A stretch of 64,000 nucleotides of DNA. It comes from Acidimicrobiales bacterium (lineage in GTDB: Bacteria; Actinomycetota; Acidimicrobiia; Acidimicrobiales; Bog-793). The DNA is taken from NCBI GenBank assembly GCA_049514105.1, contig JBEKVJ010000002.1, positions 5,727 through 69,726 of the forward strand, written 5' to 3'. Positions 13,285 to 28,875 of the stretch are shown in pieces. The notes below the pieces were generated by a model. The model had not been told where the DNA came from. It did not search any database and saw only the letters and a program-made list of their open reading frames with translations. Every line of letters begins with the position of its first letter. Position 1 is the stretch's first letter. A program made the position numbers and the translations under genes.

Positions 13285-14817
13285 ATGCGGATCACGGCCA
13301 CCGGTCACGCGGGACTGTTCATCGAGACGGCGAGAGGCACCGTTCTTTGCGACCCGTGGCGCTCACCGGCTTACTTCGCCTCCTGGTTCGTGTTCCCCGA
13401 CAACAGCGACATCGACTTCGCGGCGCTTAAGCCGGACTTCTTGTACATCTCACACCTGCACCGGGACCACTTCGACCCGGAGCTGCTCAAAAAGAGCGTG
13501 CCGAAATCGGCGACGGTCCTCCTACCGCAGTTCCCGACCGACGAGCTGCGCTCGGCGCTTTGTGATATCGGGTTCTCCTCTTTCGTCGAGACGACAAACG
13601 GCGAGCCGGTCGAGCTCGATGGCCTTCGGGTGATGATCACAGCCATGGTTGCGCCGAGCGACGGTCCTATCGGCGACTCGGCTCTCTCGCTCGACGACGG
13701 CGAGTGTCGAGTCCTCAATCAGAACGACGCCCGGCCCCCCGACCCGGAGCAGCTAAACGCCTTTGGAGCCTACGACGGGCATTTCCTCCAGTTCTCCGGC
13801 GCCATCTGGTGGCCCGTGGTCTACGAGCTGGCCGAGGCGAACAAGTCCGAGTTCGCCAGGCGCAAGCGGCTGAACGGGATGGAACGCGCACGGCGCTTTG
13901 TCGACTCGGTCGGGGCTCGCTACGTCTTTCCGACCGCCGGTCCGCCTTGTTTTTTGGACGACGACCTCTTCGAGCACAACGACTTCACCAACCGCGCCGA
14001 CAACATCTTCCCGGACCAGACCGTCTTCCTCTCCTACCTGGCCGAAAGCGGCCTCGACAACGGGCGCCTTTTGATCCCGGGCAGTGTGGCAACTCTCGAT
14101 GAAACCAGTTGTGCCCTTTCTCATCCGATCGCCCCCGAGGAACTTCGTGCGATCTTTGACCACAAGCGCCAGTACCTCGAGGCTTACGCCAAGCGCCAGC
14201 GGCCCGTCCTCGAACGCGAGCACGCCTCGTGGCCCCGCTACGAGGGCGACATACTGGGCGCCCTCAAGGCGTGGTTCGAGCCGCTGTTGGAACTGGCGGA
14301 CAACATCTGCGAAGGCGTCGGCGCCCCGGTCTTAGTCGACCTCGGCGAGGAGAAGATCCTCATCGACTTCACCGCTCGCCAGGTCCGCGCTTTCGCTGGC
14401 GAAGAGTGCCGCTACCGCTTCAGCATGCAACGGCGCCTCGTCGAGGCCCTCGTGGCCACACACGAGATCGACTGGGTCAACAGCTTGTTCCTCTCGATGC
14501 GTTTTGGTGCCAAGCGTCGGGGCCAGTACAACGAGTACGTTTTTGCTTTTTTCAAATGCCTCTCGCCCGAGCGAATGAGCTACGCCGAGGGCTGGTACGC
14601 CGAGAAGTCGAGCGGCGACGACCTCGTTGCGCTCGACGGCTTCATGGTCCAACGCCGCTGCCCGCACCTAAAGGCCGACCTTTCGCGTTTCGGCACAGTC
14701 TGTGACGGAGTACTCGAGTGCGCCATGCACGGTTGGCGCTTCGAGCTTGCCACCGGGCAGTGCCTAACAGCCGCGGGCCACGACATCGTCGCGGTGCCGA
14801 TAGAGCCCTCAGGCTGA
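13285..14817 (+). CDS. Metallo-beta-lactamase-fold protein with C-terminal Rieske [2Fe-2S] domain (Rv3818-like)
   Basis: 'GHAG', 'SHLHRDH', 'LNQND'; Rieske 'CPH...CAMH'. Confidence 0.85.
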   Translation: MRITATGHAGLFIETARGTVLCDPWRSPAYFASWFVFPDNSDIDFAALKPDFLYISHLHRDHFDPELLKKSVPKSATVLLPQFPTDELRSALCDIGFSSFVETTNGEPVELDGLRVMITAMVAPSDGPIGDSALSLDDGECRVLNQNDARPPDPEQLNAFGAYDGHFLQFSGAIWWPVVYELAEANKSEFARRKRLNGMERARRFVDSVGARYVFPTAGPPCFLDDDLFEHNDFTNRADNIFPDQTVFLSYLAESGLDNGRLLIPGSVATLDETSCALSHPIAPEELRAIFDHKRQYLEAYAKRQRPVLEREHASWPRYEGDILGALKAWFEPLLELADNICEGVGAPVLVDLGEEKILIDFTARQVRAFAGEECRYRFSMQRRLVEALVATHEIDWVNSLFLSMRFGAKRRGQYNEYVFAFFKCLSPERMSYAEGWYAEKSSGDDLVALDGFMVQRRCPHLKADLSRFGTVCDGVLECAMHGWRFELATGQCLTAAGHDIVAVPIEPSG

Positions 14818-17022
14818 GGCGAGCGTCTCGCGGGAATCCTCGCGGAACTTGCGCTTGCGCAACTCCGGGGCTCCCACGGCCGGGTTCTGCTCGAGCCAGA
14901 CCACCAGCTCGTCGGGCGGCACAGGCCTGCTCACGTAGTAGCCCTGGGCGAAATCACAGCCAAACTGGGCGAGTCGCTCCATGACGGCTCGCTTCTCGAC
15001 ACCCTCGGCGACGACGCCGAGACCGAGGTTGTGGGCGAGCTCGATCACCGCGCGGACGATGGCCTCGTCCTCCTCACGCGCCACCATGGCAGAGACAAAT
15101 GTGCGGTCGATCTTGATCTCGTCTATGGGAAGGCTCTTGAGCGAGGCGATGGAGGACCCGCCCGTCCCGTAGTCGTCGACCGAGAGACACAAGCCCATGG
15201 CACCGAGGCGCTCGAGGACGTCCTCGGTTCGTGCCGGGTCGTCCGAGATGGCACGCTCGGCGACCTCGAGCTTGAGCATCTTCGCGGGCATCCGCCACTT
15301 GCCGAGCAACGCCGCGATCTCGCCGGGAAAGCCAGGATCGAGCAGGTCGCGCTGAGAGAGGTTGACCGAAATCGGCAAGCTGAGCCCCGCGTCCGACCAG
15401 GCGCGCCACTGCCTGGCGGCCTCCTCCAGCACGCGCTGGGTTAGCGCGCGGATGAGGCTCGTCCCGCTCACGACGGGGATGAACTCGTCCGGCATGACCA
15501 GGCCCCGGCCGGAGTCCTGCCATCTAACGAGTGCCTCGACGCCGACGATGCGGCCAGATTGTACGGCAATCTTCGGCTGGTAGTGCAAAACGAGCTCGTG
15601 CTCGTCGATCGCCCGGCGCAGCTCGCCCACAAGTGCAAGGCGCTCGGCGGCCCTTGTATCCACAGAGACGTCGAAGAAGGCATAGCCGAGCTTGGCGTCC
15701 TTGGCGACTCGCATGGCCGTGTCGGCCGAGCGAAGCAGCGAGTCCACATCGGCCCCGTCGCGCGGACAGCAGGCGATGCCGACGCTCACCTCGATCTCTA
15801 GGTCCAGTCCCTCGATCGCGACCGCGGGCTCGAGCGCCTCGCGAAGGCGGTGGACCACCTCGAGCGCCTCCGCCCGGCCGGCACCGGTCACGAGCACAGC
15901 GAACTCGTCGCCGGCGAGCCTTGCTATGGAGTCGTCGCCGCGCAGGCAGTGGTGAAACCGGCTCCCGACCTCTTGCAACAAGCGGTCCCCGATCTCGCGC
16001 CCGAGGGTGTCGTTGACCTCCTTGAACCGGTCCAGGTTCATCACGAACACGACAAGCTCGCTCTCGGCCTCGCGCGCCTCACTGATCGCGTGAGCAAGGC
16101 TGTCGCGGAAATAGGCCTCGTTGGTGAGCCCGGTGAGCGAGTCGTGAAGCGAGTGATGGCGGACTTGGCGTTCGAGCAGCTCGCGCGACGCCTCCGCCGC
16201 CTTCTGGCGGGTGAGGTCCAAGATGACGCCCGCTGTCCACTGCGGCTTGCCGTCCAGGCCCAGCACGGGCCGGCCACGCTCGGTGACCCAGCGCGCCTCG
16301 CCACTTAAGTGGATGACCCTGTACTCAAGCGAGTACGGCGAGCCCCGCTCGAGGGCGTCGTTGACCTCCGAGATCATGTAGGGCAGGTCCTCGGGATGCA
16401 CGATCGAGTCGTAGCTGCGCACCTTGTTTCCGATGAAGTCGCTCGCCGGATAACCGACAAGGTCCTCGATCTGGTCGCTCATGAACTCGATCGTCCCTGT
16501 CGCGTCGCAAGCGCAGCGGTAGATCGCCCCCGGGATGCCGGCGACGGCCGAGTGGAGATACTCCTCGATTCCACTCGGACGTGGCTCGGTCCTGCGCCTC
16601 GGAGTGACATCGAGGCAGTGACCGTGGAGTGTCGACTTGCCCGACGCGCCGACAATGGGCGCGGCCTCGTCGTAGATCCAAAGCACGCTCCCATTCCGGC
16701 CGACCATGCGGTACTCGCTCAAAAGGGCCTCGCCCCTGGCCGCGGCGTCCCAATGCTCGGCGAGGACCCTGTCACGGTCGTCCGGGTGCACGAGCCTCGC
16801 GAACCCGCCCGGATCGCTCGCAATCGTCTCCGGAGATACCCCCAAAACGGCCGCGCTATGGATGCTCAGCTCGGTGACAAGAATTGGGACTCCCTGCGTC
16901 GCCCGGTACGAAAGCACAAAGAACTGCTCGAGGGCCGACCACGCCTCGACCGCGTCGTTCACCGCCGCCACCCGCCCCGGTGGCGGCTCGGGCTGAGAGC
17001 CGGAATCCATTGGACTACCCAT
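14809..17022 (-). CDS. PAS-PAS-GGDEF-EAL c-di-GMP metabolising protein
   Basis: Two PAS/PAC units ('VHPDD', 'VHPED'); 'LDRFKEVND', 'AGDEF'; 'EALVRW', 'DDYGTG', 'AEGVE'. Confidence 0.93.
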   Translation of the reverse strand: MGSPMDSGSQPEPPPGRVAAVNDAVEAWSALEQFFVLSYRATQGVPILVTELSIHSAAVLGVSPETIASDPGGFARLVHPDDRDRVLAEHWDAAARGEALLSEYRMVGRNGSVLWIYDEAAPIVGASGKSTLHGHCLDVTPRRRTEPRPSGIEEYLHSAVAGIPGAIYRCACDATGTIEFMSDQIEDLVGYPASDFIGNKVRSYDSIVHPEDLPYMISEVNDALERGSPYSLEYRVIHLSGEARWVTERGRPVLGLDGKPQWTAGVILDLTRQKAAEASRELLERQVRHHSLHDSLTGLTNEAYFRDSLAHAISEAREAESELVVFVMNLDRFKEVNDTLGREIGDRLLQEVGSRFHHCLRGDDSIARLAGDEFAVLVTGAGRAEALEVVHRLREALEPAVAIEGLDLEIEVSVGIACCPRDGADVDSLLRSADTAMRVAKDAKLGYAFFDVSVDTRAAERLALVGELRRAIDEHELVLHYQPKIAVQSGRIVGVEALVRWQDSGRGLVMPDEFIPVVSGTSLIRALTQRVLEEAARQWRAWSDAGLSLPISVNLSQRDLLDPGFPGEIAALLGKWRMPAKMLKLEVAERAISDDPARTEDVLERLGAMGLCLSVDDYGTGGSSIASLKSLPIDEIKIDRTFVSAMVAREEDEAIVRAVIELAHNLGLGVVAEGVEKRAVMERLAQFGCDFAQGYYVSRPVPPDELVVWLEQNPAVGAPELRKRKFREDSRETLASA

Positions 17023-17126: not shown

Positions 17127-17642
17127 TCAAAGGTACGGGGTGCGGCCCTCGTTGGCGCCGTTGTCGCGCTCGGCACCGGGGCCGACGCCGCGCATCTGCT
17201 CGAGCTGGCGCTGGGTGGCTACCTGCTGGACGAAAAGCGTCGCTTGGATGCCCTGGAACAGCCCGGAGAGCCAACCGACGAGCTGACCCTGAGCCACACG
17301 GAGCTCTGCGTCGGTGGGCGCGTCGCCGTCAAAGGGAATCGCGAACCGGTCCAGCTCCTGGGCGAGCTCGGGCGAGAGGGTCGCCTCGAGCTGGCGGACC
17401 GACTCGTGGTAGATCTCCTTCATCCGGTTGCGGCTCGCCTCGTCGAGCGGCGCCACGCGAACCTCCTCGAGGAGCTGCTTGGCCATTGACGCGATGCGCA
17501 TGAGCTTGGCTGGCTGGGATACGAACTCCTCTTCCGAAAGGGCACCTGGTTGGGTGATCTCGGCCGGTACGAGTGGGCGCGGTCCCGGATCGCCACTTTC
17601 GCCCAGGTCCTCGGCGCCAGAGACGTCTTGGTCGTTGTGCAT
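17127..17642 (-). CDS. bpa: Bacterial proteasome activator Bpa/PafE (DUF2587)
   Basis: 'QPAKLMRIASMAKQLLEEVR', 'ELRVAQGQLVGWLSGLFQGIQ'; C-terminal penultimate Tyr (…PYL). Confidence 0.9.
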   Translation of the reverse strand: MHNDQDVSGAEDLGESGDPGPRPLVPAEITQPGALSEEEFVSQPAKLMRIASMAKQLLEEVRVAPLDEASRNRMKEIYHESVRQLEATLSPELAQELDRFAIPFDGDAPTDAELRVAQGQLVGWLSGLFQGIQATLFVQQVATQRQLEQMRGVGPGAERDNGANEGRTPYL

Positions 17643-17723
17643 GGACCGATTCTGCCTTGAAGCCAGCGGCTCCATGCGGCACAGCCAGTCCGCACCGCCC
17701 CGTTTGCCAGAACGGCGCGGCTC

Positions 17724-19860: not shown

Positions 19861-19888
19861 CTCAAGGATCACGACGAGTTGCCGATAA
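19861..19888 (+). promoter_or_regulatory. Putative sigma-28 (FliA/WhiG-type) promoter
   Basis: CTCAAG...GCCGATAA with TCAA-N15-GCCGATAA spacing; in-frame GTG 8 nt downstream. Confidence 0.6.
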
Positions 19889-19896
19889 CTTTTCTC

Positions 19897-22671
19897 GTGG
19901 CCTCACAAGACCGCAATGAGGATCGCGCCTCGGCGCGTGCGGTGGTTGCCGCCCCTGAACCGGTCGAAACACCGGATTCGAACGTTGCCGAGCTTGAAAA
20001 TGCTACCTCAGCTAGCTATTCGCAAGTCGCGCTTGCTCCCCCGAAGCTGGGTGCCCGCATCGGCGTGCCGATCTTCGCCGCCCTTTTGGCCGCCGGCACG
20101 GGCGCGTTGCTCACATGGGGCCCGGTCGGGGCCGAGGCACCATATCGGAGCCTCACAGCTCAGCCTTTAGTCGCCCTGTTGCTGAGCATCGCCTTTGCCG
20201 CAGTCGTGCTCGGGCCGGTCACGATCCACTACCGAGGTCAGACGTGCCTGTTCGCCCTGAGCGAGGTGCCGCTCCTTCTCGGGCTGGTGATAGTGGCACC
20301 TGTCGTGCTTGTCGTCTGTCGCGTGGTCGGGGAGGCTTTCGCTTTCGCGGTGATCAGACGACAATCTCCGAGCAAGCTCGCCTTCAACCTTGCGTCCCAC
20401 GCGATGGCCTGTGTGGTCGCGATCGTCCTCTACAGGGCGTTCCTCGGGGAATACATCATTACCCACGGACCTCGCGTCGCGGTCCTACCCATAGGTTGGA
20501 CGGCGGGCACGGTTGCGCTCTGCGCTGCATTTTTGTTTGGGAACCTCGTGTTCACCATTGTCATACGCCTTAATGGGCAGGCCCAGCACCGCAAGTACGA
20601 GTTCGACTTCATTCCGGTGGCGCTGATGCTCATCTCGAGCATCGCCCTCGCCCTTGTAGTTCTCGACGCAGCTTGGTTGGACACCTGGGCGGTGCTTCCC
20701 CTCGTCATCGTCGGTGCCCTGATCGTCTTCGCCTATCGGGGCTATCTGCGCCTCACGAATCGCTTTGGAGCCCTTCAGCAGCTGTACGACTTCTCCAAGT
20801 CGGTGAGCGGCCCCTATCTCGAGACCGCCGGCACTGCGTGGGCGGTGCTTGAGCAGGTGCAACAGGTCATGCGCTCGAACCGGGCGGAGCTGATCATCAT
20901 CGACGAGTGGCCCTCGGTTCGCCACATTGCCTTGAACGGAGAGGTCCGCTCGTCGGTGCAACGCACCATCGTCGACAGCGCGTCGGTGATCGCAAAAGCC
21001 GTCACCAAACAGCAGGCGAGCCTGCGCGTGGGCACCAACAGCAATCACAAGCGCGAGGCGGATGTCGACTCTCTCCTCGGCGACTTCAGTGGAGCCATGA
21101 TCGTCCCGCTCGCCAGCGGAGAGAGGACTCTCGGTGCGCTCGTTGTCCTCGACCGCGATGCGGGCTTCGCCCCCTTCGATGAGGACGAACTGAGGCTCTT
21201 TGAGGCGTTGGCCGCGCATGCCAGCACGACCATGGAACGGGCACAACTCGTCGAGGAGCTCCGACTCGAGGCCGAGAGCAAGTGGCACCAGGCAACCCAC
21301 GATCTGTTGACAGGTCTACCCAACCGGACCCTGTTCCTCGATCGCGCCGCGGCCGCGCTCGCCGAAACCGGTAGAGCAGCTGTGGCGTTGTTGGACCTCG
21401 ACAGGTTCAAGGAGGTCAACGACACTCTCGGTCACGGCACCGGAGACAGGCTCTTGTGCGAGGTGGCAGAGACCCTCGTGCGCGCCGGCAGCGGCCGCGC
21501 AACTGTCGCCAGACTCGGGGGCGACGAGTTCGCGCTCGTGGTGCCGGACATCATCGGGCCCGAGGAGGCCTTGGGGATCGTGCGGGATCTTCTCGCAGCC
21601 ATCTCCAAGCCAATGAACATCGACGGGATCACCCTCGCAGTCACCGCTACAGCAGGCATCGCGCTCGCTCCTGAACACGGGGACAATGTCGCGACCCTCT
21701 TGCAAAGGGCGGACATTGCCATGTACCACGGCAAAGCGAAGCGCTCGGGCGTCGAGCTGTATCTCCCCGCACACGATCAGAGCATGCAGCGAAAGCTGCT
21801 CCTCGGAGGCCATCTGGCCGAGGCGCTTGCAAGCGGCCAACAGCTGAGCGTGATGTACCAGCCGATCGCCGGTCTCGTCTCTGGAGAGGTCGTACGCGTC
21901 GAGGCGCTTGCGCGCTGGTTCCACCCAGTGCACGGCCAAGTCCCAGCCGATGAGTTCATCCAGATCGCCGAGCAGATGGGCCTCATCGGCCAGATAACCG
22001 ACTTCGTGCTCCACGAGGCCTGCAGCCAGGCGGCTCGCTGGAGGCGCGACGGCCTCGAGATCGGGCTTGCGATCAACCTTTCCGGGCGCGACCTGTCGAA
22101 CCAGTCGCTCGTTCGCAACATCCTCACGCACCTCGGACAGAGCGGGCTCCCGGCGAGCGCGCTCTCTCTCGAGATAACCGAAACAGAGGTCATGGCCGAT
22201 ATAACCGAGGCGAGTGAAGTGCTCGGCCAGCTCGCCGAGCTAGGGGTGCGCATCGCCGTCGACGACTACGGCACCGGCTACTCCTCACTTGCCTACTTGC
22301 ACCGCCTGCCCGTCAAAGAGTTGAAGCTGGATCGGTCCTTCGTCGCCAATGTCGCTGCTGACCAGAGCAACTCGATCATCGTCCGCTCTTCGATCGCCAT
22401 GGCGCATTCGCTCGGCCTTACCGTTGTCGCCGAGGGCGCCGAGGACGAGGTCACCTGTGCGATCCTCGCCGACGCAGGTTGCGACGCTGTCCAGGGTTAC
22501 TACTTCTCACCGCCGCTCGGACACGAGGACCTGCTGCGTTGGCTCGCCACTCATCCACGGCTGAAGTTCTCTCGTGAGATTCCCTCGATTCGGCCCCTTC
22601 GAGTTATTTCCGGACGGCAAGAAGGCGGCACGCAAGCCGATCTAGAAGAGGGCTCCCAGCTCAGAGGCTGA
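19897..22671 (+). CDS. Membrane sensor-GAF-GGDEF-EAL bifunctional c-di-GMP enzyme
   Basis: Multiple TM helices with 'LSEVPLLLGL...KLAFN'; GAF ('AMIVPL...LGALVV...FDEDELRLF'); intact GGDEF, EAL, DDYGTGYSS; ORF open from 19879. Confidence 0.92.
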   Translation: MASQDRNEDRASARAVVAAPEPVETPDSNVAELENATSASYSQVALAPPKLGARIGVPIFAALLAAGTGALLTWGPVGAEAPYRSLTAQPLVALLLSIAFAAVVLGPVTIHYRGQTCLFALSEVPLLLGLVIVAPVVLVVCRVVGEAFAFAVIRRQSPSKLAFNLASHAMACVVAIVLYRAFLGEYIITHGPRVAVLPIGWTAGTVALCAAFLFGNLVFTIVIRLNGQAQHRKYEFDFIPVALMLISSIALALVVLDAAWLDTWAVLPLVIVGALIVFAYRGYLRLTNRFGALQQLYDFSKSVSGPYLETAGTAWAVLEQVQQVMRSNRAELIIIDEWPSVRHIALNGEVRSSVQRTIVDSASVIAKAVTKQQASLRVGTNSNHKREADVDSLLGDFSGAMIVPLASGERTLGALVVLDRDAGFAPFDEDELRLFEALAAHASTTMERAQLVEELRLEAESKWHQATHDLLTGLPNRTLFLDRAAAALAETGRAAVALLDLDRFKEVNDTLGHGTGDRLLCEVAETLVRAGSGRATVARLGGDEFALVVPDIIGPEEALGIVRDLLAAISKPMNIDGITLAVTATAGIALAPEHGDNVATLLQRADIAMYHGKAKRSGVELYLPAHDQSMQRKLLLGGHLAEALASGQQLSVMYQPIAGLVSGEVVRVEALARWFHPVHGQVPADEFIQIAEQMGLIGQITDFVLHEACSQAARWRRDGLEIGLAINLSGRDLSNQSLVRNILTHLGQSGLPASALSLEITETEVMADITEASEVLGQLAELGVRIAVDDYGTGYSSLAYLHRLPVKELKLDRSFVANVAADQSNSIIVRSSIAMAHSLGLTVVAEGAEDEVTCAILADAGCDAVQGYYFSPPLGHEDLLRWLATHPRLKFSREIPSIRPLRVISGRQEGGTQADLEEGSQLRG

Positions 22672-22825
22672 TTTTCCCCACCGATCGAACAGATCGATCA
22701 GATCGATTGCCGCCGGAGCGCGCGTTTCACGGCCACAAAGGTCGCACACATTCCCATGTCGGTGTTGACATCGTGTCTAGTGTGAACGTTGTGCAGTTCC
22801 CTACCGACCTGAGATGATTTAAGCG

Positions 22826-22889
22826 CGGGGGATTCGAGGGCACCGGTCGCTCGGTGTTACGCCCTCGTTCCCCCGACCGTGGTCCCCGC
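22826..22889 (+). other. Predicted structured RNA leader upstream of micropeptide ORF
   Basis: Nested complementarity: GGGGA/TCCCC, CGAGGGC/GCCCTCG, CACCG/CGGTG; alternative GCGGGG/CCCCGC pairing. Confidence 0.5.
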
Positions 22890-22910
22890 TCTCGAAGGGA
22901 GGTGGTCGAT

Positions 22911-22937
22911 ATGGTTCGTGACTTTTCTTGGGGATAA
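22911..22937 (+). CDS. Putative micropeptide MVRDFSWG
   Basis: AAGGGAGGT SD then 7 nt then ATG GTT CGT GAC TTT TCT TGG GGA TAA, inside an otherwise empty 500 bp intergenic region. Confidence 0.6.
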   Translation: MVRDFSWG

Positions 22938-23171
22938 GTCACGCGGTTTCTGACCGCTTGAACTAACAGTGGAAGCCGCTAGCAATCCGACGTGGTCTTC
23001 CAATCTGTTATCGGAACGGCAGGCGGAATCCTTTAGCAATATGAGGCTTTTCGCCTGCCGTTTTCCGCGCCAGGATTGTGTTGAGCCACCAAGCTCGTTC
23101 GTCTGAGCCCGGAACCGGCTGTCGCCACGAGGAAACGTGACACGAAGACCAAACGGGAGCCATGATTCACC

Positions 23172-24632
23172 GTGACCTCCGACCAGGGGCGCGTGAGGAC
23201 CAAAAATGGATTTCCCCGCGCGCCCAGAGTTGCGCGCTCGCTGGGACGACAATTCGGCTATCTCTGGGCGACTTTTCTCGTAACAGGCTTCGGCGACGGC
23301 TTCGGCTACGGAGCGGTCCCGCTCCTTGCCCTCTTCGTCGACCCGCGTCCGCTACCGGTGTCCGGAGTCGCAGCGGCCGATTCATTCCCATGGCTCGTGC
23401 TCGCGCTTCCTGCCGGCGCGCTCGCCGACCGCTACGAGCGAGGTCGTCTCATGGCGGTCACCAACATGAGCCGCGCACTTGTCCTTGTGACACTTGGAGT
23501 TCTGGTCGCGACGCGCCACATCGACTACATGCTGCTCGTGATCCTCGTGTTCACCAACGGTGGGGCGCGGGCGATCTATTACTCGGCTTCGCAAGCGACC
23601 GTGCCCGAACTTGTCGAGGCCGATGACTTCTCGCGTGCGAACGGGATCCTGACCAGCACCGAGGCCGCCACCCAGCACCTTGGCGGCCCCATAGTTGGAA
23701 CCTTGGCGTTCGCCGCATCTAAGGCAGTCCCTTTTGTTGCCGATGCGGCGGCAGTCGGGCTTGCAGGCTTGTCCCTGCTCGGCTTTCGTACCGAGAAGCT
23801 GATCTCTGGACCCGCTCACGGCTCGATCCTGGACGGTGCGCGCCAACTCGTAAAGGACCGTTCCCTGAGACTCCTCGTGACCCTGCTCGCGTCACTGGCC
23901 GCCCTACAGGGGCTCGTGGCGGGCGTGCTGGTAATTGTCGCCACGGTCGACTGGGGAGTGTCCAAGAACCTCTATGGGGTGTTCTTGGCAGTTGGCGCCG
24001 CAGGAAATGTCCTCGGAGCCCTGCTTGCAGATCGAATCGCCAATCGGATCGGCAACATCGCGACCGTCATCGTGAGCGCCATCATCTCGGGCTTGGCCTA
24101 TCTCGTCATGGCAACTGCCAGGGGATGGTTAGTCGCCGGGGCGGCCTTCTTTGTCGTCGGCTTTGCCGTCTGTGCGGGCAGTGTCGTCGCAGTTTCGCTT
24201 CGCCAGCGCCTCTCGCCCCGCAAACTGATGGGCCGCGTAGGCTCAGCATGGCGAGGCATCGTATGGGGCGCGATTCCGATCGGCTCGCTCATCGGCGGCG
24301 CTCTCGCCGATAAATGGGGGGTTCGGGTACCGCTGTACGCGGCGGGGGCAGCCCAGTGCATCGTCGCCGTGCTCCTCGCCGGCCGGCTCTCATCCAGCCT
24401 CGCCGCCTCTGAGAGAGCCGCGACGGCGGGAGAAGCTTCCGAGAGCTTGGCAACCTCGCCCGACAAGGACCATCCCTTGTCGGGGACAACGGCCACCGCG
24501 AGCAACGGCCAGGTGCCCCCGCCCGCCCTCACCCTCGAAAGGCAACCGGCCCCGACCGGGCGGCGCCTTCACGCCAAGGCCGGCCGAGGGCCCCTCTACT
24601 GGGGCCGCTCGTCGAGGAACTCCCGCCGGTAG
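23172..24632 (+). CDS. MFS transporter (efflux-type)
   Basis: About 12 TM segments; motif A 'AGALADRYERGRLM'; 'RQRLSPRKLMGRV'. Confidence 0.88.
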   Translation: MTSDQGRVRTKNGFPRAPRVARSLGRQFGYLWATFLVTGFGDGFGYGAVPLLALFVDPRPLPVSGVAAADSFPWLVLALPAGALADRYERGRLMAVTNMSRALVLVTLGVLVATRHIDYMLLVILVFTNGGARAIYYSASQATVPELVEADDFSRANGILTSTEAATQHLGGPIVGTLAFAASKAVPFVADAAAVGLAGLSLLGFRTEKLISGPAHGSILDGARQLVKDRSLRLLVTLLASLAALQGLVAGVLVIVATVDWGVSKNLYGVFLAVGAAGNVLGALLADRIANRIGNIATVIVSAIISGLAYLVMATARGWLVAGAAFFVVGFAVCAGSVVAVSLRQRLSPRKLMGRVGSAWRGIVWGAIPIGSLIGGALADKWGVRVPLYAAGAAQCIVAVLLAGRLSSSLAASERAATAGEASESLATSPDKDHPLSGTTATASNGQVPPPALTLERQPAPTGRRLHAKAGRGPLYWGRSSRNSRR

Positions 24633-25075
24633 TGCCAGCGGCGATTCCTGCGGTCACGCATCCACAAGAACAGGGCTACGAGCGCGATCAGCGGCCAAGG
24701 AAAACCCCTCCAGCCGAACCACAAGAACCTCCCCGAGGCGGCCACGAAGAACGAGAGCGCCCAGAACGCGAGCACCGCGAACACGACGACGCCGAGCAGA
24801 CCTGGACGCCGTCGGGGCGGCCTTGGCAAGGGCGCGGAGGGTTGCGGCGGCTTCAGGCTCGGCAGGTCGCTAACGAGCCCGGACAGGTCGGCGCGGGTCT
24901 TGGCGCTCATGGCCCGATCCAGGCGCTCCTGGAATTCGGCCGCGTCGAGGCGCCCGTCGCTGTAGTGCTTTGAGAGAAGCTCGCTGATCTCGTTGCGCTC
25001 GGCATCGCCGATGCGGACGCTGGAGTCAGAAGAGCGGGGGGAAGATCCCCAAGGGACATCCCATCGTGATTGCAT
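24596..25075 (-). CDS. DUF1707 (SHOCT-like) membrane protein
   Basis: 'RIGDAERNE...HYSDGRLDAAEFQERLDRAMSAKTRADL...DLP' plus two TM helices. Confidence 0.88.
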   Translation of the reverse strand: MQSRWDVPWGSSPRSSDSSVRIGDAERNEISELLSKHYSDGRLDAAEFQERLDRAMSAKTRADLSGLVSDLPSLKPPQPSAPLPRPPRRRPGLLGVVVFAVLAFWALSFFVAASGRFLWFGWRGFPWPLIALVALFLWMRDRRNRRWHYRREFLDERPQ

Positions 25076-25423: not shown

Positions 25424-25484
25424 ATCGGGGATGTCCCGGATCGAGCCCTGAGATTGGCTCCGCCCGATCAGGGTCTCCCCCGAT
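25424..25484. promoter_or_regulatory. Two 18-bp imperfect palindromes, probable LuxR/NarL-type response regulator sites
   Basis: ATCGGGG-ATGT-CCCGGAT (25424-25441) and ATCAGGG-TCTC-CCCCGAT (25467-25484) between divergent pspC and kinase genes. Confidence 0.65.
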
Positions 25485-26826
25485 GGTTGCGGTGTCGCAA
25501 AGGCGCGATCATCGTTACATCGCCGATCAGTTCACCTCCTGGAACCGCTTCGATCACACCGGGCATGTCCGCGCCTCTGCTCGGCGCTACGGCCGGCGCG
25601 GTCGCGGTCGGCTGCAGCGAAGCCGGGAGGACAGGATGATCGGCGGCATCGCCGGAGGCATCGCCGCCCGGCGCGGCAGGGACCCGACGATCGTCCGCAT
25701 CGTCTTGGTGCTACTCGGCCTTCTAAGCGGGTTCGGGGTGGTGCTCTACATCTTCGCCTGGCTGGTACTGCCGGTCGAGGGGTCCGCCGAGACGATCGGA
25801 ACACGCGCCCTGTCGGATCGCCAGGGCATCACCATCGCCATTGCCCTCGTGCCGGCGCTGGTGCTCGTGCTGCTCCTAGGCTCGCAGTTGCACGCGAGCT
25901 TCGTCTCGTCCTGGGGCCTCCCCCTTCTCGTCAGCGCGGCCGGACTGCTTCTTGTCTACCGCAACGCCGAGGCCGAGGAACGGGCCTCGCTCGAGGACTC
26001 CTTCAAGGCTCTCTTGCAACTGGGTTCCGACCGGCGCCATTCGCCGCGCTACTTCCTCGCCCGTCTCGGCGGCGGACTCATCTTGTTCGTGCTCGGCGTG
26101 GTGGTCATCTCCCAGGGGGGCAGGCACACCTTCCTCCGTCCGATCGCAGGCACCGTCCTTATGATCGCGGGGACCGTGATCCTGCTCGGACCGTGGTGGC
26201 TGCGGTTGGCCCTCGGTCTGTTGCACGAACGCCAGGCACGCATCCGCGCCGAGGAGCGCGCGGACATGGCCGCCCGAGTACACGATTCGGTACTGCAGAC
26301 ATTGGCCATGATCCAGCGCTCGGCGGCAGAGCCCCAAGAGGTGGCGAGGCTTGCCAGGGCTCAAGAGCGAGAGCTGCGCTCGTGGCTGTTCGAGGGCAGG
26401 GAGCCGGGCTCCTTCGGCGCCGAGGGTGCCTCCACGCTCGCAGCCGGGGTAGAGCAGATCGAACGGGAGGTGGAAGAAGCCCACGGCGTCGCCGTCGATG
26501 CCGTCATGGTCGGTGACGCCCCTCTCGACGACGAGTTGCGGGCCCTGCTCGCCGCGGGCAGGGAGGCAACGGTGAACGCGGCAAAATGGTCTGGAGCAAG
26601 CTCGGTGTCCATCTACGTCGAAGCCGAGGCGAAACGGGTGTCCATGTTCGTGCGCGACCGCGGGGCGGGGTTCGACCCCGAGTCGATAGCAGACGACCGC
26701 CAAGGTATTGCGGAGTCGATACGGGGCAGGATGCAGCGCCACGGCGGGACAGCCGTCATCCGTTCCGTGCCGGGCGAAGGCACAGAGGTCGAACTCAGCG
26801 TCCCCCGCCACCCGGGGCGAGCATGA
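25483..26826 (+). CDS. PspC-domain sensor histidine kinase
   Basis: N-terminal PspC domain; TM helices; H-box 'EERADMAARVHDSVLQTL'; 'EATVNAAKWS', 'RDRGAGF'; start uncertain. Confidence 0.9.
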   Translation: MVAVSQRRDHRYIADQFTSWNRFDHTGHVRASARRYGRRGRGRLQRSREDRMIGGIAGGIAARRGRDPTIVRIVLVLLGLLSGFGVVLYIFAWLVLPVEGSAETIGTRALSDRQGITIAIALVPALVLVLLLGSQLHASFVSSWGLPLLVSAAGLLLVYRNAEAEERASLEDSFKALLQLGSDRRHSPRYFLARLGGGLILFVLGVVVISQGGRHTFLRPIAGTVLMIAGTVILLGPWWLRLALGLLHERQARIRAEERADMAARVHDSVLQTLAMIQRSAAEPQEVARLARAQERELRSWLFEGREPGSFGAEGASTLAAGVEQIEREVEEAHGVAVDAVMVGDAPLDDELRALLAAGREATVNAAKWSGASSVSIYVEAEAKRVSMFVRDRGAGFDPESIADDRQGIAESIRGRMQRHGGTAVIRSVPGEGTEVELSVPRHPGRA

Positions 26827-27495: not shown

Positions 27496-28875
27496 ATGAG
27501 TAACTTCCGCACAATCATCGAGCCCTTCCGGATCCACGCCGTCGAGCCCTTGCGGATGACGACGCCGGACGAGCGAGCGGCCGCGATCGAAGCCGCGGGT
27601 TACAACGTCTTCAACCTTCTCGCCCGCGACGTCCTCATCGACCTTCTCACCGACTCCGGCACGGGGGCCATGAGCCGTGACCAGTGGGCCGCGATCCAGC
27701 ACGGCGACGAGTCCTACGCCGGCTCGCCGTCGTGGATCATCTTCCGCGACGCTGTGAGCGAGCTCTTCCCGTTCCGCCACATCATCCCGACCCATCAGGG
27801 TCGAGCGGCAGAGAAGATCCTCTTCGCGGTCATCGGTGGCCCCGGCCAGGTGGTGCCCAGCAACACCCATTTCGACACCACCCGGGCCAACATCGAATTC
27901 ACACACGCCGAGGCCGTCGACCTCGTCATCGCCGAAGGTCGGGACCCGGCCAGCTTGCACCCGTTCAAGGGCAACGTCGACACCGAGGCACTCGAAGCCC
28001 TGATCCAAGAGCGCGGAAGCGAGCACGTGCCGGTCGTGATGGTCACGATCACGAACAACTCGGCTGGCGGCCAGCCTGTGAGCCTCGCCAACCTGCACGA
28101 GGTGCGCAAGGTCTGCGACCGCTACGGCCTGCCCCTGTTCCTCGACGCCTGCCGTTTTGCCGAGAACGCATGGTTCATCCGCGAGCGCGAGGAGGGCCAC
28201 TCGGAGCGCGAAGTCGCCGACATCGTGCGCGAGATGGCCTCGCTCGCGGACGGGATGACAATGAGCGCGAAGAAGGACCCGCTCGCCAACATCGGCGGAT
28301 GGCTGGCTTGCAACGACGACGCGCTGGCCGAGAAGTGCCGGAACATGTTGATCCTGACGGAGGGATTCCCCACCTACGGCGGGCTTGCAGGGCGCGATCT
28401 GGAGGCAATCGCCCAGGGGATCCGAGAGGCTGTCTCGCACGACTACCTCCGTTACCGGATCCAGTCGACGGCGTACCTGGGCGAGGCGCTACATAGAAGC
28501 GGCGTCCCTGTCTTCCTGCCGATCGGCGGACACGCCGTGTACCTCGACGCAAGGGGATTGCTCCCCCATATCCCCCCGCTCGAGTATCCCGGTCAGGCTC
28601 TGGCGGTGGCGCTCTACAAAGCCGGAGGCATCCGCGGCTGCGAGATCGGCACGGTGATGTTCGGATTGCAGCCAGACGGGACCGAGATAGAAGCCACGAT
28701 GGACCTGGTCCGCCTTGCGATCCCAAGGCGCACCTACACCCAGAGCCACATCGACTACGTGATTGAGGTCTGCCAACAAGTCGCGCAGGAGGCAAAGGAG
28801 CTTCGCGGGTACAAGATCGTCGAGCAGGCGCCCCAGCTCCGCCACTTCACGGCACGTTTCGAACCTCTGCACTGA
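27496..28875 (+). CDS. tnaA: Tryptophanase (beta-eliminating lyase)
   Basis: 'IDLLTDSGT', 'GDESYAG', 'HQGRAAE', 'MSAKKD', 'RLAIPRR', 'LRHFTARF' (His here is TnaA-type; tyrosine phenol-lyase has Phe). Confidence 0.88.
   Translation: MSNFRTIIEPFRIHAVEPLRMTTPDERAAAIEAAGYNVFNLLARDVLIDLLTDSGTGAMSRDQWAAIQHGDESYAGSPSWIIFRDAVSELFPFRHIIPTHQGRAAEKILFAVIGGPGQVVPSNTHFDTTRANIEFTHAEAVDLVIAEGRDPASLHPFKGNVDTEALEALIQERGSEHVPVVMVTITNNSAGGQPVSLANLHEVRKVCDRYGLPLFLDACRFAENAWFIREREEGHSEREVADIVREMASLADGMTMSAKKDPLANIGGWLACNDDALAEKCRNMLILTEGFPTYGGLAGRDLEAIAQGIREAVSHDYLRYRIQSTAYLGEALHRSGVPVFLPIGGHAVYLDARGLLPHIPPLEYPGQALAVALYKAGGIRGCEIGTVMFGLQPDGTEIEATMDLVRLAIPRRTYTQSHIDYVIEVCQQVAQEAKELRGYKIVEQAPQLRHFTARFEPLH

What the first reader, a model, noticed from the sequence alone, without database searches (positions are those of the whole stretch)
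19861..22960. Candidate micropeptide-c-di-GMP signalling module: membrane GAF-GGDEF-EAL sensor followed by 8-aa ORF MVRDFSWG
Seen: 240 bp after the sensor gene, a near-perfect SD (AAGGGAGGT) sits 7 nt before ATG-GTT-CGT-GAC-TTT-TCT-TGG-GGA-TAA (22911-22937). It is among the strongest ribosome-binding sites in a window where many genes look leaderless, and the ORF is too short for the ORF track. The sensor has intact GGDEF and EAL motifs and an uncharacterised multi-TM domain ('LSEVPLLLGL...RRQSPSKLAFN'). Inference: the aromatic-ending peptide (DFSWG) may be the ligand or modulator of this membrane domain, i.e. a pheromone-like input to c-di-GMP. My recollection that 'KxxFN' membrane sensors often lie beside short Trp-containing ORFs is unverified here.
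Basis: partly seen in the sequence, partly recalled or inferred. Interest (0 to 1): 0.85.

Follow-up and report, generated by a model that had tools for sequence, protein, structure and literature searches.

The report
Conserved Trp-ending mini-ORF leader RNA
The 8-codon ORF is real and conserved in many related bacteria, but it sits in a structured RNA just upstream of a transporter gene and looks more like a ribosome-sensing regulatory leader than a peptide signal for the neighbouring c-di-GMP sensor.

Summary
An SD (22895-22903) lies 7 nt before ATG 22911, the ORF reads MVRDFSWG-stop, and it starts 240 nt after a TM-GAF-GGDEF-EAL gene.

The ORF is not a chance frame. In 41 of 42 related copies (Acidimicrobiia, four families) an invariant long SD, a start codon and a 5-10 residue ORF are kept. 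Trp is the second-to-last residue in 37 of 41, and 34 of 41 end in W-G-stop. Gly and stop codons vary synonymously.

A paralogous set of 8 loci has the same design, ending in W-X-stop.

The ORF lies inside a structured RNA of about 250 nt (about 22824-23070). It has its own conserved promoter, a covarying 5' hairpin, a sequestered SD and a long 3' hairpin. No Rfam family matches.

The ORF is always upstream of, and co-directional with, a DHA3-type MFS transporter gene. The sensor homologue is always adjacent too, in tandem or divergent.

Best reading: a sensory leader peptide or uORF for the transporter, within a conserved sensor-leader-transporter module. The mechanism and the signal are inferred, not shown. 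The peptide-ligand idea is neither shown nor excluded.

The parts
19879..22671 (+). Membrane sensor gene: orphan multi-TM domain, then GAF, GGDEF and EAL (930 aa). It is a conserved neighbour of the element.
   Evidence: Translation. Pfam hits GAF_3, GGDEF and EAL. No family for residues 50-324. Orthologues at 87-93% identity within the genus.
22764..22788 (+). Block conserved within the genus, upstream of the -35 (GTTGACA...TAGTGTGA). Role unknown; a candidate regulator site.
   Evidence: Alignment of 15 copies. Only partly kept in two neighbouring genera.
22789..22818 (+). Predicted promoter of the element: -35 TTGTGC (22789-22794), 18 nt spacer ending in TGN, -10 GATGAT (22813-22818). Predicted start near 22824.
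   Evidence: The same motif lies at a fixed distance from the SD in 37 of 40 copies, against 0.36% of 5000 random 95-nt windows.
22826..22875 (+). 5' terminal hairpin (CGGGGGA...UCCCCCG with inner helices).
   Evidence: 7 of 13 pairs change on both sides across 30 distinct sequences. Present in the MFE fold.
22875..22909 (+). Upstream CU-rich strand (22875-22893), which pairs with the invariant long SD GAAGGGAGGTGGTCGA (22894-22909).
   Evidence: The SD is invariant in 20 of 20 genus copies. Helices 3 and 4 are 96% paired, with 3 pairs changed on both sides. The SD and start codon are paired in the MFE fold.
22911..22937 (+). Mini-ORF MVRDFSWG-stop (8 codons plus TAA).
   Evidence: Sequence. 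Kept in 41 of 42 related copies, of which 34 of 41 end W-G-stop. Synonymous Gly and stop codons. pN/pS 0.39-0.71.
22918..22957 (+). Hairpin enclosing the end of the ORF and its stop codon (GTGAC...GTCAC, 22918-22942), then a small hairpin GCGG...CCGC (22943-22957).
   Evidence: MFE fold. The small hairpin covaries (GC to CG, CG to UA) in RNAalifold.
22994..23001 (+). Downstream CU-rich word (GGTCTTCC), an alternative partner of the SD.
   Evidence: RNAalifold pairs the SD with this stretch across 20 copies. This competes with the upstream partner, so a switch is inferred, not shown.
23008..23067 (+). Conserved UUAUCGG word and long 3' hairpin with the loop word CCUUUAG (23030-23036), followed by UUUUCC. 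Terminator-like.
   Evidence: A hairpin forms in 31 of 31 distinct sequences, mean z -3.29, with several pair types per position. The consensus terminator scan did not call it.
23161..23174 (+). -10-like CATGAT, 5 nt before the GTG start of the transporter gene, which has no SD. A possible leaderless promoter.
   Evidence: A -10-like hexamer lies 5-7 nt before the start in 24 of 35 type I loci. The promoter scan also hit 23137-23166.
23172..24632 (+). MFS transporter gene, DHA3-like (Mef/Tap/Tet(V) relatives). All hits are below the curated cut-offs.
   Evidence: Pfam MFS_1 and MFS_3. NCBIfam TIGR00900 at 137 bits against a cut-off of 319.6. Orthologues lie downstream of every copy of the element whose contig reaches that far.

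Best explanation
The 8-codon ORF is a genuinely translated, conserved leader mini-ORF. Its family signature is an invariant long SD, 5-10 residues, Trp second to last, then Gly and a stop. It lies inside a structured RNA of about 250 nt, just upstream of and co-directional with a DHA3-type MFS transporter gene. I read it as a sensory uORF or leader peptide. The SD is normally folded away. When a ribosome translates the ORF and dwells at its ...W-G-stop end, it melts the stem that holds the stop codon and refolds the RNA downstream. That would set how much transcript or translation reaches the transporter gene. Shown: the ORF, its conservation, the RNA structure and the gene order. Inferred: that ribosomes pause at the end of the ORF, what the signal is (a ribosome-binding compound, Trp or charged tRNA-Trp, or another metabolite), and that the output is transporter expression. 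The TM-GAF-GGDEF-EAL gene is a constant third member of the module. Its functional link, for example sensing what the transporter moves, is inferred only from conserved adjacency.
For: Translation and selection. The SD, start and short frame are kept in 41 of 42 copies from four families. Trp is second to last in 37 of 41, and 34 of 41 end W-G-stop. Among 32 distinct W-G-stop ORFs, Gly is GGC 24, GGT 5, GGA 3, and the stop is TGA 28, TAA 3, TAG 1. ORF length differences are whole codons. Two copies that lost TGA have an in-frame TAG two codons on. pN/pS is 0.39-0.71.

Paralogous modules. 8 of 8 have a long SD and an ORF ending W-X-stop (MTFFDRWL, MTRRDRWS, MRWE and others). Their stop codon overlaps a hairpin.

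Leader geometry. The ORF is upstream of and co-directional with the MFS gene in every locus whose contig reaches that far, including G139 and G751, where the sensor is divergent. In type II, an SD-bearing MFS start lies 31-48 nt after the 3' hairpin in the three loci where both were placed, which leaves no room for a promoter.

Specificity. 27 of 28 other DHA3 homologue loci in the class have neither the sensor nor such an ORF.

RNA. The fold has z -5.30. The 5' hairpin and the SD pairing covary: 10 pairs change on both sides against 1.9 +/- 1.2 in shuffles. The 3' hairpin forms in 31 of 31 distinct sequences. The promoter motif is found in 37 of 40 copies.

Expression. Contigs from four metatranscriptome runs of three studies match the element exactly. 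In run X8 the contig depth is 33.8, against 9.8 and 5.5 for the contigs on the flanking genes. These are contigs only, so this is weak.
Against: No conserved antiterminator was found. The best duplex between the upstream RNA and the 5' arm of the 3' hairpin is no better than in shuffles (mean z +0.14, 25 sequences) and sits at inconsistent places.

In this window, and in 24 of 35 type I loci, the MFS start has no SD and lies 5-7 nt after a -10-like hexamer. The transporter may therefore have its own leaderless promoter, and the element may be a separate transcript.

The 3' hairpin has only a weak U-run, and the terminator scan missed it.

Interior residues of the peptide differ between lineages (VRDFS, VSLGPI, TCRDSR), so no single arrest motif beyond W-G is defined.

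Two of the four RNA contigs begin 43 and 74 nt upstream of the predicted start.

No ribosome, toeprint or reporter data exist.
Confidence: 0.5

Rival explanations
1. Stand-alone small gene. The element is an independent RNA of about 250 nt with its own promoter and a constitutive terminator. It acts in trans, for example through the invariant CU-rich loop UCCUUUAG, or through its peptide. Translation of the mini-ORF gates its activity or stability. The transporter is transcribed separately as a leaderless mRNA.
For: Own promoter in 37 of 40 copies. Long 3' hairpin with no detectable antiterminator. A -10-like hexamer 5-7 nt before an SD-less MFS start in 24 of 35 loci. No RNA contig bridges the element and either flanking gene, and in one run the contig depth is higher on the element (weak). 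Invariant loop and single-stranded words (UUAUCGG, CCUUUAG) across genera.
Against: In the paralogous type II loci and in G139 the transporter start lies too close behind the element for a separate promoter. Strict co-direction and adjacency with the MFS gene in four families is what a cis element shows. No trans target is known or was searched for.
Confidence: 0.2
2. The released peptide (x-R-D-x-x-W-G) is itself a signal, perhaps exported by the adjacent MFS pump. It binds or modulates the orphan TM domain of the GGDEF-EAL protein, giving a peptide input to c-di-GMP.
For: The sensor homologue, the mini-ORF and the MFS gene stay together in tandem and divergent layouts, in four families and in a paralogous lineage. 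Some peptide positions are under purifying selection (pN/pS 0.39-0.71). The two residues before Trp vary most, as in pherotype-like diversification.
Against: The RNA around the ORF is more conserved than the peptide. Peptides as short as MRWE (4 residues) and MENKWG occur in homologous modules. There is no signal sequence, processing gene or modification gene nearby. The feature conserved best is the position of Trp relative to the stop codon, which points to the ribosome rather than a receptor. Paralogous modules whose sensor TM domains share only 24-29% identity with this one keep the same peptide scheme.
Confidence: 0.12
3. Trp-supply sensor, a special case of the leader model. The single UGG codon two codons before the stop is a hungry-codon or free-Trp sensor, as in the trp or tna leaders, and the transporter moves Trp, indole or a related aromatic compound.
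For: Trp is the one residue kept in every intact ORF of both types. Its distance to the stop and to the stop-overlapping stem is fixed. A tryptophanase-subfamily gene lies 4.5-7 kb downstream in this genus and two neighbouring genera.
Against: There is only one Trp codon in most copies. Gly after Trp is selected at the amino-acid level in type I, which a hungry-codon sensor does not need. The tryptophanase gene is on other contigs or far away in other genera that have the module, and it is present in genera that lack the module. The DHA3 family is known for drug efflux (the family's reputation is my recollection).
Confidence: 0.12
4. The frame is not translated. It is a by-product of a conserved non-coding RNA structure that happens to look like an SD plus an ORF.
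For: The ORF overlaps conserved stems. Interior codons show no excess third-position variability across the whole set. There is no direct evidence of translation.
Against: The stop triplet varies only among TGA, TAA and TAG, or is replaced by a nearby in-frame stop. Length changes are whole codons in all but one copy. GGC, GGT and GGA alternate at the Gly codon. The start codon is always ATG or TTG at a fixed distance from an 11-nt complement of the usual anti-SD (the 16S tail was not read here). The same design recurs in paralogous loci whose RNA sequence is otherwise different.
Confidence: 0.05

Closest known systems
Sensory uORFs and leader peptides of efflux and resistance genes (the mef(A)/msr(D), erm and cat/cmlA leaders, recalled; E. 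coli toiL, PMC12121999, abstract and passages read)
   Same: A short SD-preceded ORF in a structured 5' region on the same strand as the regulated gene. The stop or the ORF is embedded in a stem. A hairpin lies between the ORF and the gene. The gene class is a Mef/Tap/Tet(V)-like MFS pump.
   Different: The peptide signature (Trp second to last, then Gly and a stop) matches none of the arrest motifs I know. No antiterminator was found. A covarying hairpin of about 50 nt precedes the ORF. A GGDEF-EAL membrane protein is a fixed neighbour. The transporter may be leaderless in this locus.
TnaC and the tna operon (PMC8450073 and PMC8429421, search listing and abstract starts only), and PepNL (PMC11890864, passages read)
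   Same: Short leader ORFs in which the ribosome is held at the stop codon and the nascent chain, with Trp involved, decides termination. They need no antiterminator hairpin, since TnaC works through Rho (recalled).
   Different: TnaC has 24 residues, with W12, D16 and P24 (recalled). PepNL has 14 residues and carries Asp-tRNA in the P site. Here the ORF has 5-10 residues with W at -2 and G at -1. All three stop codons occur. The RNA after the stop is G-rich and structured, so it does not look like a rut site.
mgtA/mgtL-type leaders (recalled): a structured leader RNA combined with a short translated ORF
   Same: A long structured leader whose folding is coupled to translation of a tiny ORF.
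   Different: No sequence or Rfam relation. No ligand is known here.
Microcin C locus (mccA heptapeptide gene followed by a hairpin, with an MFS exporter MccC; recalled)
   Same: A gene of about 7 codons with a strong SD, a hairpin behind it and an MFS pump nearby.
   Different: The peptide ends in Gly, not Asn. No MccB-like adenylyltransferase or other tailoring gene is among the neighbours.

Membership tests
Leader-peptide / sensory-uORF regulator of a downstream gene | Short ORF with its own RBS, upstream of and co-directional with the regulated gene | tested here: met
   True in every type I locus whose contig reaches the MFS gene and in 8 of 8 type II loci.
Leader-peptide / sensory-uORF regulator of a downstream gene | The ORF is under selection as a translated frame | tested here: met
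   41 of 42 copies keep the frame. Stop and Gly codons vary synonymously. Indels are whole codons. pN/pS is 0.39-0.71.
Leader-peptide / sensory-uORF regulator of a downstream gene | Mutually exclusive RNA structures (terminator and antiterminator, or RBS masking of the downstream gene) governed by ribosome position | tested here: inconclusive
   The stop codon lies in a stem, and the SD has two alternative partners. No conserved partner was found for the 5' arm of the 3' hairpin (mean z +0.14).
Leader-peptide / sensory-uORF regulator of a downstream gene | The downstream gene is transcribed through the leader | tested here: inconclusive
   Type II: the start lies 31-48 nt after the hairpin and has an SD. 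This window: 99 nt of spacer, no SD, and a -10-like hexamer 5 nt before the GTG. RNA contigs do not bridge the gap, which is not evidence either way.
Leader-peptide / sensory-uORF regulator of a downstream gene | Signal-dependent ribosome pausing in the ORF | not testable with these tools
   Needs toeprinting or ribosome profiling.
Intrinsic (Rho-independent) terminator | GC-rich stem followed by a U-run | tested here: inconclusive
   The stem is strong and conserved. The tail is UUUUCC here and UUCUCC or CACUCC in relatives. The consensus scan found none.
Known RNA families (Rfam 15), including c-di-GMP-I/II riboswitches, 6S RNA and tmRNA | Match to a covariance model | tested here: not met
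   Only a chance miRNA hit (E 0.096) in 22400-23400. No hit in six related loci. No tmRNA or tRNA.
   The sensor homologue is adjacent in every locus where the flank was available.
   The peptide is too short for the complex tool, which asks for chains of 30 residues or more. No secretion or processing genes are nearby.
Microcin C-like peptide-nucleotide locus | C-terminal Asn and an adjacent MccB-type adenylyltransferase | tested here: not met
   The peptide ends in Gly. The neighbours are DUF1707, a PspC-type kinase, a tryptophanase-like enzyme, a mycothiol transferase, a helicase and Bpa.
TnaC-type Trp-dependent arrest peptide | W-x3-D ... P-stop spacing, with tnaA directly downstream | tested here: not met
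   The ORF has 8 codons and ends in G. The tryptophanase-like gene is 4.5 kb away behind three other genes, and it is unlinked in other genera. The TnaC residues are recalled.

The most novel reading that the evidence does not exclude
The three conserved parts form one signalling circuit that has not been described. A ribosome-made micro-peptide, or the ribosome stalled on it, is one part. A DHA3 pump that exports the peptide or its cognate small molecule is the second. The third is a membrane GGDEF-EAL enzyme whose orphan TM domain senses that same molecule.
Probability: 0.12. Interest if true: 0.9.

Novelty: new variant of a known kind. Interest (0 to 1): 0.62.

Why it matters
If the reading is right, this is a new family of bacterial sensory mini-ORFs. 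Its signature is very simple: Trp second to last, then a stop. It is found in an uncultured, poorly studied class of Actinobacteria from peat and wetland samples. It gives a concrete candidate for a new ribosome-arrest or termination-pause motif, and a way to find what the attached pump transports. The constant pairing with a TM-GAF-GGDEF-EAL protein, in two gene orders and two paralogous lineages, suggests that c-di-GMP signalling and an efflux system are wired together. No known input exists for that orphan TM domain. The finding also shows that an ORF far below gene-caller limits can be recognised from comparative data alone.

Tried and rejected
Known RNA families. Rfam at E up to 1 on 22400-23400 gave only a chance miRNA hit. 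Six related loci gave nothing at E up to 0.1. ARAGORN found no tRNA or tmRNA.

'P1' helix. RNAalifold paired GGGAUGAU with a downstream strand. I dropped this helix because that word is the conserved -10 of the promoter.

Synteny as a tie-breaker between sensor and transporter. It failed. I found no locus with the mini-ORF but without the sensor, or without the MFS gene. The apparent exception (genus g34: no sensor hit, none in the first locus) turned out to have a divergent 894-aa homologue just outside the first locus.

Antiterminator search by RNAduplex. No signal.

Structural alignment of the 3' hairpin. MAFFT misaligned the distant copies. The model-based alignment A9 was polluted by 14 antisense matches, so I did not count pairs on it. 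I used per-sequence folds instead, which lean towards pairing.

Complex prediction of the MFS protein with the sensor's TM region. The verdict was 'no answer', score 0.00, and the controls were not folded. This is no evidence for or against binding.

Metatranscriptome contigs. The stretches 22595-22780 and 22996-23192 have no cover in run X8, and the contigs end at 22995-23024. Contig ends probably reflect graph branching at words shared with relatives. I draw no transcript ends from them. A 10-letter adapter-like loose end at 22781 in one contig was not interpreted.

Tryptophanase link. It holds only in three related genera, so I dropped it as a part of the module.

Literature. Searches found no description of this element. 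No paper held 4 of the 5 terms leader peptide, MFS transporter, GGDEF, small ORF, Actinobacteria.

Not done: the search for homologous proteins, the search of protein representatives, structure prediction, the atlas search, and a search outside the class.

Full report
**1. What is in the window.**
AAGGGAGGT lies at 22895-22903. Seven nt follow, then ATG GTT CGT GAC TTT TCT TGG GGA TAA at 22911-22937.

The upstream ORF (19879-22671) encodes 930 aa with GAF, GGDEF and EAL domains. Its GGDEF and EAL words are intact. Its N-terminal multi-TM region matches no Pfam or NCBIfam model.

Downstream, 23172-24632 encodes an MFS transporter (Pfam MFS_1 and MFS_3). Its best NCBIfam relatives are the DHA3 'H+ antiporter' subfamily, EntS, Tet(V), Mef and Tap, all below their cut-offs.

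Upstream, on the other strand, lies a UvrD-like helicase gene.

A relative's record title names an uncultured Acidimicrobiaceae bacterium. The DNA occurs in peat, wetland and soil metagenomes.

**2. The ORF lies inside a conserved element.**
The 500-nt spacer matched 19 of 20 other genomes of the genus at 72-82% identity. The edges of the match were sharp, at about 22764 and 23073. No match was found in 20 genomes of other genera. There is one copy in the window's own genome.

In 20 aligned copies the word GAAGGGAGGTGGTCGA is invariant, and so is much of the 110 nt before it. No Rfam family, tRNA or tmRNA matches.

A covariance model of the 5' part found the element in 33 of 92 genomes of the family (6 of 29 genera). 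In an even sample of the order it found 2 of 151 genomes, one being the window's own genome and the other belonging to another family.

The model under-detects. I checked six genomes that had a strong sensor orthologue but no model hit, and 6 of 6 had the SD, the mini-ORF and the transporter gene.

**3. The mini-ORF is conserved as a reading frame.**
I read 42 copies; the copy of the unpublished genome G100 is left out. Of these, 41 keep an ATG or TTG at a fixed distance from the SD, followed by a frame of 5-10 residues. The exception is G007, which has a 1-nt insertion. In that genome the sensor and the transporter are also split over several frames, so the whole module is either decayed or poorly assembled.

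- Trp is second to last in 37 of 41 copies, and 34 of 41 end W-G-stop.
- The other four end WGGG, WGGP or WPI (two copies).
- Examples: MVRDFSWG (this window), (M)VSLGPIWG, MTCRDSHWG, (M)ARRDLSWG, MAFPHWG, MRDCRWG, MENKWG.
- Among 32 distinct W-G-stop ORFs, Gly is GGC 24, GGT 5 or GGA 3, and the stop is TGA 28, TAA 3 or TAG 1.
- Two copies that changed TGA to GGA carry an in-frame TAG two codons later.
- ORF length differences are whole codons.
- pN/pS within lineages is 0.39-0.71.

Across the whole set, interior codons show no third-position excess. The interior is therefore only loosely constrained between lineages. The frame, the length, R-D in many copies, Trp, the last residue and the stop are what is kept.

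Background is low. The generalised pattern (SD, short ORF, W-X-stop) occurs 3 times in the 64-kb window, one of them this ORF.

**4. A paralogous set shows the same design.**
More distant homologues of the sensor in the same family (35-39% identity overall) lie divergently beside an MFS homologue (31-38% identity) in 5 of 6 loci. The sixth locus ends at a contig edge.

In 5 of 5, the spacer holds a long SD (GAGAGGAGGTGA-like) and a mini-ORF upstream of the transporter. The peptides are MTFFDRWL, MTTFDRWL, (M)TANVQWK, MTRTFGEWR and MRWE.

A DNA search added MTVLDKWI, MTRRDRWS and MMRRSEWA. It also found one relic without a start codon or Trp codon and without the neighbouring genes.

Trp is second to last in 8 of 8. 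The stop overlaps a perfect hairpin. A 12-bp GC hairpin follows. The transporter's SD-bearing start lies 31-48 nt after that hairpin in the three loci where both were placed.

**5. Gene order.**
In family f1 and family f71 the order is sensor, element, transporter, all on one strand.

In G139 (family f49) and G751 (family f7) the sensor homologue is divergent. It is 37% identical over 839 residues in G139, with the same architecture. The mini-ORF stays upstream of, and co-directional with, the transporter.

Twenty-seven of 28 other DHA3 homologue loci of the class (31-38% identity) have neither the sensor nor an SD-preceded ORF ending W-G/A/P-stop.

I found no case in which the ORF occurs without either partner. 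An apparent one (g34) was resolved by fetching more flank.

**6. Anatomy of the RNA.**

*Promoter.* A -35 TTGNNN, a spacer of 17-19 nt ending in TGN, and a -10 NANNNT lie at a fixed distance (73-81 nt, or 60 nt in one genus) before the SD in 37 of 40 copies. The same pattern is found in 0.36% of random windows. In this window the -35 is at 22789-22794 and the -10 at 22813-22818, which predicts a start near 22824.

*Fold.* The stretch 22824-23075 folds at -120.9 kcal/mol, z -5.30.

*5' hairpin and SD.* The RNA begins with a 50-nt hairpin in which 7 of 13 pairs change on both sides. The SD pairs with an upstream CU-rich strand. Over the whole 5' domain, 10 pairs change on both sides, against 1.9 +/- 1.2 in shuffles (0 of 500 shuffles reached 10). 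The alignment was fitted to the model, which favours pairing. RNAalifold also offers a downstream CU-rich partner for the SD, at 22994-23001.

*End of the ORF.* The end of the ORF and its stop sit in a stem at 22918-42.

*3' hairpin.* A conserved UUAUCGG word leads into a long 3' hairpin with the loop word CCUUUAG. The hairpin forms in 31 of 31 distinct sequences (mean z -3.29), and several stem positions show 3-6 pair types. These are per-sequence MFE folds. The U-run is weak, and the consensus scan did not call a terminator.

**7. Expression.**
Contigs from four metatranscriptome runs of three studies match exactly at 22750-23013, 22781-22995, 22834-23024 and 22845-22998. In run X8 the contig depth is 33.8 on the element, against 9.8 on the 3' part of the sensor gene and 5.5 on the transporter gene. 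Relatives' versions of the ORF are present as well.

These are contigs. They give no strand and no ends, and DNA carry-over cannot be excluded. Two of them start upstream of the predicted start, so read-through from the sensor gene or an upstream start is possible.

**8. Mechanism.**
The design fits a sensory leader ORF for the transporter. Its features are a very strong but masked SD, a tiny frame, a stop inside a stem, a hairpin before the gene, and a pump of the Mef/Tap/Tet(V) kind. The type II geometry and the compact G139 arrangement support this.

The known analogues are TnaC and PepNL, which hold ribosomes at stop codons (PMC11890864, passages read; TnaC papers, search listing and abstract starts only), and toiL (PMC12121999, abstract and passages read). 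That a C-terminal Gly slows peptide release is my recollection and was not checked here.

Three results argue against a classical attenuator in this locus:
- No antiterminator was found.
- The U-run is weak.
- The transporter start has no SD and follows a -10-like hexamer by 5 nt. This pattern is seen in 24 of 35 type I loci and suggests a leaderless mRNA of its own.

The stand-alone-RNA reading therefore stays alive at about 0.2. The peptide-ligand reading is neither supported nor excluded, at about 0.12.

**9. Novelty.**
Leader peptides before efflux genes are a known kind. Four things are not in Rfam or in the papers I could search:
- this peptide signature;
- the RNA family;
- its restriction to Acidimicrobiia, as far as searched;
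- its constant company with a TM-GAF-GGDEF-EAL protein.

Noticed in passing
window 27496-28875 (+): This gene belongs to the tryptophanase subfamily (NF009709, 672.9 bits; below the TnaA and tyrosine phenol-lyase equivalog cut-offs). It lies 4.5-7 kb downstream of the element in this genus and two neighbouring genera. In other genera with the module it is on other contigs or far away, and it is present in genera without the module.
   Followed up: yes
window 14809-17022 (-): A second c-di-GMP gene (two PAS folds, then GGDEF and EAL, 737 aa) lies 3 kb upstream of the sensor. It is separated from it by a Bpa proteasome-activator gene (17127-17675) and the UvrD-like helicase gene.
   Followed up: no
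window 22764-22788: This 25-nt block (GTTGACA...TAGTGTGA) lies just upstream of the element's -35. It is conserved within the genus and partly in two neighbouring genera. It does not fit a promoter at usable spacing and may be a regulator site.
   Followed up: partly
L005 (G007:C11, around 274545-274865): This is the only copy with a frameshifted mini-ORF (a 1-nt insertion). In the same locus the sensor and MFS genes are each split over several frames. The module is either decaying or the assembly carries indel errors.
   Followed up: partly
L110 (G041:C38:61505-61555): This is a relic of the type II leader. The SD is kept, but the start codon reads ACG and the Trp codon reads TAG. No MFS or sensor homologue lies within 1.5 kb.
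   Followed up: partly
G019 contigs C28, C46, C27 (L006, L016, L017): One genome bin holds three different copies of the whole module on three short contigs, with different peptides. It is probably a mixed-strain bin rather than a triplication.
   Followed up: no
window 25483-26826 (+) and 24596-25075 (-): A PspC-domain histidine kinase (MacS/LiaS-like, below cut-offs) and a DUF1707 protein follow the transporter gene. Whether they travel with the module was not checked.
   Followed up: no
type II loci L097-L108, directly after the 3' hairpin: The word YAACGRC is conserved right behind the GC hairpin in 8 of 8 type II leaders. In some of them the last three bases of the hairpin are a GTG in frame with the transporter. 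No explanation was found.
   Followed up: no
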